Part shown: in pieces, positions 1 through 3,000 of the stretch
Layout: every line of letters starts with the position of its first letter
How positions within the stretch are numbered: position 1 is the stretch's first letter
Source of the DNA: Escherichia coli
GTDB lineage: Bacteria > Pseudomonadota > Gammaproteobacteria > Enterobacterales > Enterobacteriaceae
Reading direction: 5' to 3' (one strand)
Length of the DNA stretch: 64,000 nucleotides
NCBI RefSeq assembly: GCF_030013205.1
Contig: NZ_CP122648.1
Made by a program: the position numbers

Positions 1-3000
1 GCTGAACTCGGTATTTGCGATAAGATGTTGACAGAGGATAAATTCATAACTAACAGTTATTGTTTCTGTATCCAGTTGATTTTCAATGATCTGGTGATGA
101 ATAGCCGATAAAAAAGCGCCTCTTAGTTGTATATAATAATACTTTTCCCATCTACCAAATCTATTTATTCGATAGAAGTCAAATTCCATAAATAATTGTT
201 CATTATTGTTAATGGAATTAATAAATAATGGGGTGCTTTTATCAATTAATTTACAAAATGTTATACCATGGAACTGTGAACCAAGCCCCGTATTAGTAAT
301 ACTATTTAAGAGTGAGAATGTAAATATTTCATCCTCATGCCCGCTCTGCCAGCGATTACCTGTAGACTCAGAAGTCCCACAACCTGCGGAGATGCTTCCT
401 TGTTGTTCTCCCGTTACTGTCAGGTAAACAATATTACTCATCCCTGAAAAGTCCTTTTATGGCATGCTATTTTATCAATGGCAATATTATGCTTGTTAAT
501 TGTTATTTATTTACGCCAGGAAATTGTAGGCGTATATATTAAAAAATAAAATATTACACTTTAGGAAGTAATTATGAGTTAAATCTCAATATATGTATTG
601 GGCAAATAAATACCTTAAAGGAAGGTATGCAGATTTTGAATGACACCCTTTTTCCATCTCAGAAAAAGGGCACTATCTTACTTCACCCGCGCCATATAAT
701 ACGCATCGACATATTCACCATTACGAAAAGCGTAATTTTTACCGGTGCCTTCAATCTCAAAGCCGAATTTTTTATAGACTGCGATTGCCGGGGCGTTATC
801 CGCAAACACCGTCAACTCAATACGATCTATCCGTAGCCAGTTATCGCACATTTCAATCAATTCGCGGATCAGGGCGCTGGCGACGCCGCGGTTGTGCCAG
901 CGGGAGTCAACACAGATACCAAAAGTTGCAACATGACTGCGGCGTGGGCCTTGATAAGCCTCAATGAAAAGATGACCCACCACGATGCCATCAATGCAGG
1001 CAACCAGTTGTTTAAACCCCTGGCGATCTTTCAATCTTTCTGGCCACCAGCCTTCCGAAGGATGAGGTAGTTGTAGTGTGTTGCAATACACCTCCGGCTG
1101 GGCGTGAATCTGCCTGATGGCCTCGTAATCCCGTGTTTCTGCGTGGCGTATCACTATCTCACTCATTCCTTTGTCCTCTTTGGGGTAAATGTCCCTTTCA
1201 ACATCATTGACTTTCAAATGCGAGTCAAATGCATTTTTTTGCAAAAAGTGTTGGACAAGTGCGAATGAGAATGATTATTATTGTCTCGCGATCAGGAAGA
1301 CCCTCGCGGAGAACCTGAAAGCACGACATTGCTCACATTGCTTCCAGTATTACTTAGCCAGCCGGGTGCTGGCTTTTTTTTTGATCTTTCGTTTTCAATT
1401 TATCCACGGGAAGTGCTTGTGTTCGTTATGCGCACTCCAGTAGGAACCACGTCCGCTTTGCGCTAAGGTGTAAATAACCACCTTAATAAGGACGAAATCA
1501 TGGTCATAAACTGCGCCTTTATTGGCTTCGGCAAAAGCACCACCCGTTACCATCTGCCGTATGTACTTAACCGCAAGGATAGCTGGCATGTCGCGCATAT
1601 TTTTCGTCGCCATGCGAAGCCGGAAGAACAGGCTCCCATTTATTCCCATATCCATTTCACCAGCGATCTCGACGAAGTACTAAACGATCCCGATGTTAAG
1701 CTGGTTGTGGTCTGCACCCATGCAGACAGCCACTTCGAGTACGCGAAGCGCGCGCTGGAAGCCGGGAAAAATGTGCTGGTCGAAAAACCGTTCACCCCAA
1801 CGCTTGCCCAGGCGAAGGAGCTGTTTGCGTTGGCGAAAAGCAAAGGGCTGACCGTCACGCCGTATCAGAATCGTCGCTTTGATTCCTGCTTCCTGACAGC
1901 GAAAAAAGCGATTGAAAGCGGCAAGCTTGGAGAGATTGTCGAAGTGGAAAGCCATTTTGACTATTACCGCCCGGTGGCAGAAACCAAACCTGGACTGCCG
2001 CAGGATGGCGCGTTTTATGGCCTTGGTGTGCATACGATGGACCAGATTATTTCTCTGTTCGGTCGCCCGGATCACGTCGCTTATGACATCCGCAGCCTGC
2101 GTAATAAAGCCAACCCGGACGACACCTTTGAAGCGCAGCTGTTTTATGGCGACCTGAAAGCCATCGTCAAAACCAGCCATCTGGTGAAAATCGATTATCC
2201 GAAATTTATCGTTCACGGTAAGAAAGGTTCGTTTATTAAATACGGTATCGACCAGCAGGAAACCAGCCTCAAGGCTAATATTATGCCGGGCGAACCGGGA
2301 TTCGCGGCGGATGATTCGGTCGGTGTGCTGGAGTATGTCAATGACGAGGGTGTGACGGTCAGAGAAGAGATGAAGCCGGAGATGGGCGATTACGGGCGCG
2401 TTTATGATGCGTTGTATCAAACCATCACCAACGGTGCGCCAAATTACGTCAAGGAATCTGAAGTTCTTACCAATCTGGAAATCCTTGAACGAGGATTTGA
2501 GCAAGCCTCTCCCTCCACAGTGACTCTCGCGAAGTAAGTTTGATGGCCCCTCGAATAGTTCAATTTTTTTGAACAGAGGGGTCAATTTTCACCCTCTATC
2601 ATCCCAGGCAGATCGGGTCCACACTAAGCCCATCGAAAACATTCAGGGGGCGAATACAAATGATCTACTTACGCAAAGCAAATGAACGTGGTCATGCAAA
2701 TCATGGCTGGCTGGACTCCTGGCATACTTTCTCTTTTGCCAACTATTACGACCCGAACTTTATGGGTTTCTCCGCGCTGCGCGTGATTAACGACGACGTG
2801 ATTGAAGCAGGGCAGGGCTTCGGCACTCACCCACATAAAGATATGGAAATTTTGACCTACGTGCTGGAAGGTACTGTTGAGCACCAGGACAGCATGGGCA
2901 ATAAAGAGCAGGTTCCGGCGGGTGAGTTCCAGATTATGAGTGCGGGTACGGGTATTCGTCACTCAGAGTACAACCCAAGCAGCACCGAGCGTCTGCATCT

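What the first reader, a model, noticed from the sequence alone, without database searches (positions are those of the whole stretch)
1264..1382. RyhB sRNA with Fur box, encoded where the ORF track shows only spurious ORFs
The yhhY-yhhX intergenic region contains the RyhB sRNA sequence with its Fur-box promoter and intrinsic terminator. Two track ORFs (1189..1443 and 1281..1466) overlap it and should not be annotated as proteins. Together with the feoABC locus this window contains two Fur-controlled iron-homeostasis elements.
Basis: established knowledge. Interest (0 to 1): 0.3.

Follow-up and report, generated by a model that had tools for sequence, protein, structure and literature searches.

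The report
RyhB iron-sparing small RNA gene
This stretch is the well-known E. coli gene for RyhB, a small regulatory RNA switched on by iron shortage, letter-for-letter identical to the laboratory-strain copy, so the finding is correct but ordinary.

Summary
The observation and its interpretation both hold. Window 1288..1382 (+) is ryhB. Rfam RF00057 matches at 83.1 bits (gathering 55, E 3.6e-14). The promoter, Fur box and all 95 nt are identical to the annotated K-12 MG1655 gene b4451. The gene lies between yhhY (678..1166, -) and yhhX (1500..2537, +). A Fur-box 19-mer at 1267..1285 overlaps the -10 hexamer and is the only match with 3 or fewer mismatches in the 64 kb. A 7-bp G+C-rich hairpin followed by nine T ends the gene.

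Both track ORFs (1189..1443, 1281..1466) exist, but four results mark them as chance frames:
- Their start codons lie upstream of the RNA's +1.
- They run through the terminator.
- They have no Pfam match.
- E. coli strains carry 1-nt indels inside them, and they are not conserved in 112 RyhB loci of other species.

The published nonapeptide claim (RyhP, 1328..1357) uses the third frame and does not rescue either ORF.

feoABC is present at 45857..48658 (-). Its Fur sites match the consensus only weakly here, so Fur control of it rests on the literature.

Nothing here is new. Possible read-through from ryhB into yhhX is a minor, already published open question.

The parts
1252..1257 (+). -35 hexamer of the ryhB promoter (TGGACA)
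   Evidence: Promoter scan: TGGACA, 18-nt spacer, TATTAT, 10 of 12 matches. It is the only sigma-70-like site found in 1100..1560.
1267..1285 (.). Fur box (GAGAATGATTATTATTGTC), overlapping the -10 hexamer and ending 3 nt before +1
   Evidence: the only match with 3 or fewer mismatches to GATAATGATAATCATTATC in 64 kb (0.01 expected); an overlapping shifted match at 1261..1279. The sequence is identical to the K-12 site, which bound Fur in gel shift (25.2-bit cluster; PMC2189734). A Fur-box-like 19-mer lies upstream of the RyhB core in nearly all 120 loci of other species.
1276..1281 (+). -10 hexamer (TATTAT)
   Evidence: It lies 7 nt upstream of the annotated 5' end at 1288.
1288..1382 (+). 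ryhB gene (RyhB sRNA, 95 nt as annotated in K-12; the mature RNA is about 90 nt)
   Evidence: 95/95 identical to K-12 b4451. Rfam RF00057 scores 83.1 bits over 1317..1381. The region is present in 5424 of 5426 complete E. coli genomes.
1321..1347 (+). Conserved core GCACGACATTGCTCACATTGCTTCCAG, containing the target-pairing region
   Evidence: The pairing role is established knowledge and was not tested here.
1356..1382 (+). Intrinsic terminator: hairpin AGCCAGC-CGGGU-GCUGGCU plus a U9 tail (the Hfq-binding 3' module)
   Evidence: 7 pairs, 5 G-C, T-run. (hairpin present in both the MFE and the centroid fold); the stem is kept in 107 loci through compensatory changes (GCCAGC/GCUGGC, GCCCGC/GCGGGC, GCCGGC/GCCGGC, GGCCAG/CUGGCC).
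1189..1443 (+). Chance ORF (84 aa), not a gene
   Evidence: One search lists it. Its start lies 99 nt upstream of +1 and it reads through the terminator. It has no Pfam family. E. coli strains carry 1-nt indels inside it. Its start offset is shared by only 2 of 112 loci of other species, and the median frame-A ORF is 25 codons. It is not annotated in K-12 or in the PGAP records examined.
1281..1466 (+). Chance ORF (61 aa, TTG start), not a gene
   Evidence: One search lists it. Its TTG start lies 7 nt upstream of +1, inside the Fur box and -10 region. It has no Pfam family. Indels in the terminator T-run and at 1411 fall inside it. In Citrobacter, Enterobacter and Klebsiella-type loci the frame stops at core+38. 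Only 3 of 112 loci resemble it.
1328..1357 (+). Candidate nonapeptide ORF 'RyhP' (ATT start; IAHIASSIT*), in the third frame
   Evidence: The sequence is present. The claim comes from PMC5331693. The stop is at the same position in 30 of 112 loci, and 1-nt insertions remove it in close relatives. It is not in the K-12 annotation.
678..1166 (-). yhhY (N-acetyltransferase), divergent upstream neighbour
   Evidence: Collinear with K-12. A yhhY homologue lies divergently upstream of RyhB in 44 of 106 loci.
1500..2537 (+). yhhX (putative oxidoreductase), same-strand downstream neighbour, 117 nt after the terminator
   Evidence: It is downstream on the same strand in 15 of 92 loci. The literature suggests it may be transcribed from the ryhB promoter (PMC8896160; PMC4509938).
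45857..48658 (-). feoABC operon (feoA 48431..48658, feoB 46093..48414, feoC 45857..46093)
   Evidence: NCBIfam equivalogs: NF007106 at 158 bits (cut-off 102), NF007105 at 1642 bits (cut-off 683), NF011960 at 174 bits (cut-off 111). Collinear with K-12.
48765..48789 (.). Weak overlapping Fur-box-like sites upstream of feoA (13/19 each, 6 bp apart)
   Evidence: Their positions, about 116-122 bp upstream of the ATG, agree with the 10.9- and 13.4-bit sites that Chen et al. predicted (PMC2189734).

Best explanation
Window 1288..1382 (+) is the E. coli ryhB gene.

How it works: when iron is plentiful, Fe2+-Fur binds the Fur box at 1267..1285. That box covers the -10 hexamer and the start region, so the sigma-70 promoter (1252..1281) is blocked. 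When iron runs low, Fur leaves the DNA. A roughly 90-nt RNA is then transcribed from 1288 and ended by the hairpin and U-tract at 1356..1382. With Hfq bound to the U-rich 3' module, the conserved core (1321..1347) base-pairs with mRNAs for non-essential iron proteins, such as sodB, sdhCDAB and acnB. This blocks their translation and triggers their decay, which spares iron.

What is shown here: the identity of the gene, its promoter, Fur-box and terminator anatomy, its conservation, and the absence of coding signal in the overlapping ORFs.

What is taken from established knowledge or cited papers: Fur binding, Hfq dependence and target pairing.

The ORFs 1189..1443 and 1281..1466 are chance open frames.
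For: - Rfam RF00057 scores 83.1 bits against a gathering score of 55, E 3.6e-14.
- 95/95 identity to K-12 b4451, with an identical promoter and Fur box.
- The Fur-box match is unique in 64 kb, and it overlaps the only promoter-like site in the region.
- The terminator is found by the scan and appears in the fold.
- The region is present in 5424 of 5426 complete E. coli genomes.
- The 27-nt core occurs in at least 120 loci of other gamma-proteobacteria. Most have an upstream Fur-box-like site and a terminator stem kept by compensatory changes.
- Fur binding to the identical K-12 site was shown by gel shift, and that site is one of the strongest Fur clusters in the genome (PMC2189734).
- Fur/RyhB regulon work is reported in PMC4676285.
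- Against coding of the two ORFs.
Against: Nothing argues against the identification.

The predicted fold of the whole RNA is no more stable than shuffled sequence (z = -0.59). This is usual for Hfq-dependent sRNAs and does not bear on identity.

Expression, Fur repression and target regulation were not, and cannot be, tested in this particular strain with these tools.
Confidence: 0.97

Rival explanations
1. One or both track ORFs (1189..1443, 84 aa; 1281..1466, 61 aa) encode real small proteins that overlap the sRNA gene.
For: The frames are open in this window and, at least in part, in some other Escherichia sequences.
Against: - Both start codons lie upstream of the ryhB +1, and no other promoter-like site was found on this strand.
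- Both frames must read through a strong intrinsic terminator.
- Neither has a Pfam family.
- 1-nt indels inside the ORFs segregate among E. coli strains: the T-run near 1235-1241, the terminator T-run, and position 1411.
- In E. albertii, frame A has no start codon before the core.
- Only 2 of 112 and 3 of 112 loci keep comparable ORFs.
- Neither is annotated in K-12 or in the PGAP genomes examined.
Confidence: 0.01
2. ryhB is a dual-function gene. Besides the regulatory RNA it encodes the nonapeptide RyhP (window 1328..1357, ATT start), as proposed for EHEC.
For: - The ORF is intact in the window.
- Neuhaus et al. 2017 reported ribosome footprints on it.
- They also reported a competitive-growth effect of the over-expressed peptide in low-iron medium (PMC5331693).
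Against: - The start codon is non-canonical, with only a weak Shine-Dalgarno sequence.
- The phenotype came from a high-copy over-expression plasmid.
- The first seven codons lie inside the RNA's conserved pairing core, so their conservation says nothing about the peptide.
- The stop is at the same position in only 30 of 112 loci. It is removed by 1-nt insertions in Citrobacter, Enterobacter and Klebsiella-type loci.
- The K-12 reference annotation lists only an ncRNA.
Confidence: 0.1
3. This is an extension rather than a rival. The Fur-controlled ryhB promoter also drives yhhX by read-through of the ryhB terminator, so ryhB-yhhX behaves like sgrS-setA.
For: - The two genes are on the same strand, 117 nt apart, and the simple scan finds no other sigma-70-like site in the gap.
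- Read-through at the ryhB terminator is frequent on plasmids (PMC4509938).
- That paper says co-transcription with yhhX 'seems' to occur but has not been shown.
- yhhX mRNA rises under iron limitation in wild type but not in a ryhB deletion that also removes the promoter (PMC8896160).
- In Enterobacter and Lelliottia loci, only 39 nt separate the terminator from the yhhX ATG.
Against: - Termination at ryhB is enhanced under iron depletion, which is exactly when the promoter is active.
- yhhX follows ryhB in only 15 of 92 loci, and REP-like insertions stretch the gap to 450 nt.
- A conserved GCGCTAWGGT motif about 40 nt upstream of yhhX (TGTTATGGT in Enterobacter) could be the -10 region of an independent promoter.
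Confidence: 0.45

Closest known systems
E. coli K-12 ryhB (b4451; Rfam RF00057 RyhB)
   Same: The 95-nt sequence, promoter and Fur box are identical, and the yhhY-ryhB-yhhX neighbourhood is the same. The Rfam score is above gathering.
   Different: Nothing differs in the gene. The only differences from K-12 in the 333-nt intergenic region are three positions downstream of the terminator: window 1394, 1411 (a 1-nt indel) and 1487.
RyhB homologues and paralogues of other gamma-proteobacteria (for example the second copies in Yersinia, Photorhabdus, Serratia and Pantoea, and the long Vibrionaceae forms)
   Same: They share the exact 27-nt core, an upstream Fur-box-like site and a Rho-independent terminator.
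   Different: The 5' parts, the linker length and the terminator sequence all vary. Many species carry two loci, whereas this window and E. coli have one. Photobacterium, Aliivibrio and Salinivibrio copies extend much further before a T-run.
sgrS-setA (an sRNA gene co-transcribed with a downstream gene) and SgrS/SgrT (a dual-function sRNA)
   Same: An Hfq-dependent sRNA gene is followed on the same strand by a protein gene, and terminator read-through is documented for both sgrS and ryhB (PMC4509938). A small-peptide claim exists for ryhB (RyhP), as SgrT does for SgrS.
   Different: Co-transcription of ryhB with yhhX has not been shown experimentally. The peptide RyhP has a non-canonical start, and the position of its stop codon is not conserved.

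Membership tests
RyhB sRNA (Rfam RF00057) | Match to the family covariance model at or above the curated gathering score | tested here: met
   83.1 bits against 55, E 3.6e-14, full model 1-67, window 1317..1381 (+)
RyhB sRNA (Rfam RF00057) | Sequence identity to the experimentally characterised E. coli K-12 ryhB | tested here: met
   95/95 identical to b4451, and the upstream 120 nt are also identical
RyhB sRNA (Rfam RF00057) | Fur box overlapping the promoter (Fur-repressed transcription) | tested here: met
   The sequence feature is met: a 16/19 match at 1267..1285 overlaps the -10 hexamer and is unique in the window. Fur binding itself is known for the identical K-12 sequence only from the literature (PMC2189734).
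RyhB sRNA (Rfam RF00057) | Rho-independent terminator with a long U tail preceded by a U-rich linker (Hfq-binding module) | tested here: met
   A 7-bp stem with 5 G-C pairs plus T9. The stem is conserved with compensatory changes across 107 loci. Hfq binding itself was not tested.
RyhB sRNA (Rfam RF00057) | Conserved single-stranded core that pairs with target mRNAs | tested here: met
   The 27-nt core at 1321..1347 is found exactly in at least 120 loci of other species. Pairing with targets was not tested because none of the classical targets lies in the window.
RyhB sRNA (Rfam RF00057) | Induction by iron limitation, Hfq dependence, and repression of sodB, sdhCDAB and other targets | not testable with these tools
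   Requires experiments. Known for K-12 from the literature (PMC4676285).
Protein-coding gene (for ORFs 1189..1443 and 1281..1466) | Reading frame and length conserved among relatives, with no frameshifting polymorphism | tested here: not met
   1-nt indels lie inside both ORFs among five E. coli strains. Only 2 of 112 and 3 of 112 loci of other species have comparable ORFs.
Protein-coding gene (for ORFs 1189..1443 and 1281..1466) | Start codon inside a transcript, and similarity to a known protein family | tested here: not met
   The starts at 1189 and 1281 lie upstream of the ryhB +1 at 1288, and no other promoter-like site was found on the strand. Neither ORF has a Pfam family at E up to 1.
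Dual-function sRNA (RyhP nonapeptide) | Small ORF present, and conserved as an ORF beyond what the RNA function explains | tested here: inconclusive
   The ORF is present at 1328..1357. Seven of its nine codons lie in the RNA core used to find the loci, so they are uninformative. The stop position is kept in only 30 of 112 loci. Translation cannot be tested here.
FeoABC ferrous iron transporter | Three adjacent genes matching the FeoA, FeoB and FeoC equivalog models above their cut-offs | tested here: met
   NF007106 at 158.3 (cut-off 102), NF007105 at 1641.9 (cut-off 683), NF011960 at 173.7 (cut-off 111)
FeoABC ferrous iron transporter | Fur control through Fur boxes in the feoA promoter | tested here: inconclusive
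   The best consensus matches upstream of feoA are only 13/19, and none has 5 or fewer mismatches. Fur repression is reported in the literature, under anaerobic conditions in the promoter-lacZ assays (PMC4676285), and weak sites are predicted at the same place (PMC2189734).

The most novel reading that the evidence does not exclude
The Fur-repressed ryhB promoter may be a main source of yhhX transcription through terminator read-through. That would make the uncharacterised oxidoreductase YhhX an iron-starvation protein co-expressed with RyhB, in an sRNA-mRNA operon like sgrS-setA. The idea has been suggested in two papers but never demonstrated. The 39-nt terminator-to-ATG gap in Enterobacter and Lelliottia fits it, while the conserved -10-like motif upstream of yhhX argues for an independent promoter.
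Probability: 0.4. Interest if true: 0.25.

Novelty: already known. Interest (0 to 1): 0.04.

Why it matters
For annotation: an ORF-only track mislabels this locus. The correct feature is an ncRNA gene with a Fur box, not two hypothetical proteins. The PGAP RefSeq records examined carry no feature at all here, so ryhB can easily go unannotated.

For biology: nothing new. RyhB is the textbook iron-sparing sRNA, and this copy is identical to the K-12 gene.

The window therefore carries two members of the Fur regulon, ryhB and feoABC, about 44 kb apart, exactly as in K-12.

Tried and rejected
- Whole-RNA fold stability as evidence: z = -0.59 against shuffles, so it is uninformative and was dropped in favour of covariation in the terminator.
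- A strong Fur box at feoA: none found with 5 or fewer mismatches, and the best is 13/19. The sequence alone therefore does not establish Fur control of feoABC.
- Reading Massé & Gottesman 2002 (PMC123697): the paper is not held. Fur-binding evidence was taken from PMC2189734 instead.
- Whether the published peptide RyhP corresponds to either track ORF: it does not, because it is in the third frame.
- Using conservation of the RyhP codons as evidence: rejected, because the loci were found with a 27-nt pattern that contains seven of the nine codons.
- Looking up the two ORF translations in the large protein collections, to see whether gene callers ever report them: not run. The cost was not justified, since indel polymorphism and non-conservation already settle the point.
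- The main text of PMC4676285 was searched for nfuA, yhhX, yhhY and glpD as Fur or RyhB regulon members. None is mentioned.
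Full report
**Observation**

- The sequence reads GCGATCAGGAAGACCC...GCTGGCTTTTTTTTT from 1288.
- A scan of the whole window against Rfam at gathering thresholds returns RF00057 RyhB at 1317..1381 (+). It scores 83.1 bits against a gathering score of 55, E 3.6e-14, over the full length of the 67-position model.
- The only other hit in 64 kb is ES036 at 25229..25271.
- The ORF list confirms both ORFs exactly as stated: 1189..1443 (84 aa, ATG) and 1281..1466 (61 aa, TTG). There is also a 34-aa antisense ORF at 1225..1329.

**Identity with the reference gene**

- The K-12 MG1655 record annotates ncRNA ryhB (b4451) at 3580922-3581016. It lies between yhhX (b3440) and yhhY (b3441).
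- Aligning the intergenic region of the window with K-12 maps that 95-nt feature to window 1288..1382 with no difference. The 120 nt upstream are also identical.
- The only three differences lie downstream of the terminator, at window 1394, 1411 (a 1-nt indel) and 1487.
- The intergenic region is present in 5424 of 5426 complete E. coli genomes, always on the chromosome. It is 100% identical in strain K_EC180.
- The sampled PGAP-annotated records show no feature there at all. Only the curated K-12 record names the RNA.
- The window as a whole is collinear, in reverse orientation, with K-12 from yhhZ to mrcA. The exception is a 7-kb insertion at 18173..25181.

**Anatomy**

- Promoter: the promoter scan finds one sigma-70-like site in 1100..1560, TGGACA (1252..1257), an 18-nt spacer, then TATTAT (1276..1281). 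That places +1 at 1288, 7 nt after the -10 hexamer.
- Fur box: the 19-bp consensus GATAATGATAATCATTATC has a single match with 3 or fewer mismatches in the whole window, at 1267..1285 (0.01 expected). A shifted overlapping match lies at 1261..1279, the usual hexamer-repeat architecture.
- The box covers the -10 hexamer and ends 3 nt before +1. Bound Fur would therefore occlude RNA polymerase. This step is inferred.
- Binding of Fur to the identical K-12 sequence was shown by gel shift. That site ranks among the strongest Fur clusters of the genome (25.2 bits; PMC2189734).
- Terminator: the gene ends in a hairpin AGCCAGC-CGGGT-GCTGGCT (1356..1374) followed by nine T (1374..1382). The hairpin appears in both the minimum-energy and the centroid folds.
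- The overall folding energy is not unusual (z = -0.59), so it was not used as evidence.

**Comparative evidence**

They come from Escherichia, Citrobacter, Enterobacter, Klebsiella, Yersinia, Serratia, Pantoea, Photorhabdus, Xenorhabdus, Dickeya, Pectobacterium, Aeromonas, Photobacterium, Aliivibrio, Salinivibrio and Zobellella. Several species have two loci.

- Nearly all loci have a Fur-box-like 19-mer with 5 or fewer mismatches 50-80 nt upstream of the core.
- In 107 loci a terminator hairpin follows within about 60 nt.
- The stem of that hairpin is maintained through compensatory changes: GCCAGC/GCUGGC, GCCCGC/GCGGGC, GCCGGC/GCCGGC and GGCCAG/CUGGCC.
- A yhhY homologue lies divergently upstream at an almost constant distance in 44 of 106 loci.
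- yhhX follows on the same strand in only 15 of 92 loci, in the Escherichia-Citrobacter-Enterobacter group.

**The overlapping ORFs**

Five results mark both as chance frames.

1. Their start codons (1189, 1281) lie upstream of the RNA's 5' end. No other promoter-like site is found on that strand.
2. Both must be read through a strong intrinsic terminator.
3. Neither has any Pfam match at E up to 1.
4. Among five E. coli strains, 1-nt indels occur inside the ORFs: in the T-run near 1235-1241, in the terminator T-run, and at 1411. The RNA body is invariant in those strains.
5. Across 112 loci with full flanks, only 2 share the start offset of ORF A and only 3 have an ORF like B. The median ORF covering the core is 25-29 codons. 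In E. albertii, frame A already lacks a start before the core. In Citrobacter, Enterobacter and Klebsiella-type loci, a 1-nt insertion stops frame B 38 nt into the core region.

**A published caveat**

Neuhaus et al. 2017 reported ribosome footprints on ryhB in EHEC. They proposed a nonapeptide, RyhP (MAHIASSIT, ATT start), with a competitive-growth effect when over-expressed (PMC5331693).

- The ORF is present here at 1328..1357.
- It is in the third frame, so it is neither of the two track ORFs.
- Seven of its nine codons lie in the RNA's conserved core and are therefore uninformative.
- Its stop is at the same place in only 30 of 112 loci.
- I rate dual function as possible but unlikely (about 0.1).

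**Mechanism**

*Shown here:* gene identity, the promoter, Fur-box and terminator arrangement, and conservation of the Fur box, core and terminator.

*From established knowledge and cited papers* (PMC4676285, PMC2189734, PMC4509938): Fe2+-Fur represses ryhB. Under iron limitation the roughly 90-nt RNA accumulates. It binds Hfq through its U-rich 3' module and pairs through the core with mRNAs of non-essential iron proteins. This lowers their translation and stability, which spares iron.

**feoABC**

- The three genes lie at 48431..48658 (feoA), 46093..48414 (feoB) and 45857..46093 (feoC) on the minus strand. Each scores above its NCBIfam equivalog cut-off.
- The best Fur-consensus matches upstream of feoA are only 13/19. 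They are two overlapping sites at 48765..48789, about 116-122 bp before the ATG.
- That is where Chen et al. predicted weak sites of 10.9 and 13.4 bits.
- Fur repression of feoABC is documented. In promoter-lacZ assays it was limited to anaerobic growth (PMC4676285).
For feoABC, however, it rests on literature rather than on a strong sequence signal.

**Possible extension**

- ryhB and yhhX are on the same strand, 117 nt apart.
- Morita et al. found frequent read-through at the ryhB terminator. They noted that co-transcription with yhhX seems likely but is unproven.
- A 2022 study saw yhhX rise under iron limitation in wild type but not in a ryhB deletion that also removes the promoter.
- In Enterobacter and Lelliottia, only 39 nt separate the terminator from the yhhX ATG.
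- Against this, a conserved GCGCTAWGGT motif about 40 nt upstream of yhhX could be an independent -10 element.
- Also against it, termination at ryhB is enhanced under iron depletion.
- The question remains open and is of modest interest.

**Verdict**

The finding is correct and already known. Its only practical value is for annotation. Interest is low.

Noticed in passing
window 18173..25181: A 7-kb chaperone-usher fimbrial operon sits between glgP and glpD. It is absent from K-12, which has only the yzgL remnant there. Its ORFs are a subunit (18652..19233), an usher (19275..21866), two subunits, a chaperone (22903..23706) and an adhesin-like protein (23699..24850). At least 80% of it is present in 544 of 5426 E. 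coli genomes.
   Followed up: partly
window about 18650..19270: Compared with the intact form of this operon (NZ_CM187528.1), the window lineage lacks about 1 kb. The intact form has a 705-nt subunit gene and a 753-nt periplasmic chaperone gene before the usher. The window, which is 100% identical to strain ETEC1748, has lost the 3' end of the major subunit gene and the whole first chaperone gene. PGAP marks the subunit as a pseudogene. The operon is probably defective.
   Followed up: partly
window 25229..25271 (+): An Rfam ES036 (RF02751, 'CssrF') sRNA match at 43.6 bits against a gathering score of 37.6. It lies just downstream of glpD, at the edge of the segment shared with K-12.
   Followed up: no
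window 1328..1357 (+): The published candidate nonapeptide ORF RyhP (ATT start, IAHIASSIT*) is intact. It lies in the third frame relative to the two track ORFs. The position of its stop is not conserved in most other species.
   Followed up: yes
window 1455..1499; loci L005, L007, L045, L061 and others: The last ~45 nt before yhhX are conserved wherever yhhX follows ryhB: GCGCTA(A/T)GGT..., then AACCTTAA(A/T)AAGGAC, then ATG. The rest of the gap varies from 39 nt (Enterobacter, Lelliottia) to 450 nt, including REP-like insertions. The conserved piece could be an independent -10 element with its leader, or a regulatory element.
   Followed up: partly
window 1235..1241, 1374..1382 and 1411: Length polymorphisms of single bases in homopolymer runs segregate among E. 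coli strains in the ryhB flanks and in the terminator U-tract (8 against 9 T in strain 258E). U-tail length is known to matter for Hfq binding.
   Followed up: no
RefSeq records NZ_CP062203.1, NZ_CM192145.1, NZ_CP053855.1, NZ_CP031345.1: These PGAP-annotated E. coli genomes carry no feature at all over the ryhB locus. Only the curated K-12 record annotates the ncRNA.
   Followed up: partly
loci L008/L009, L014/L015, L019/L020, L029/L030, L040/L041, L056/L057 and others: Many Yersinia, Photorhabdus, Serratia, Pantoea, Hafnia, Pectobacterium and Mixta genomes have two separate loci with the exact 27-nt RyhB core. Usually only one of the two is next to a yhhY homologue. Salinivibrio has two tandem copies about 300 nt apart.
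   Followed up: no
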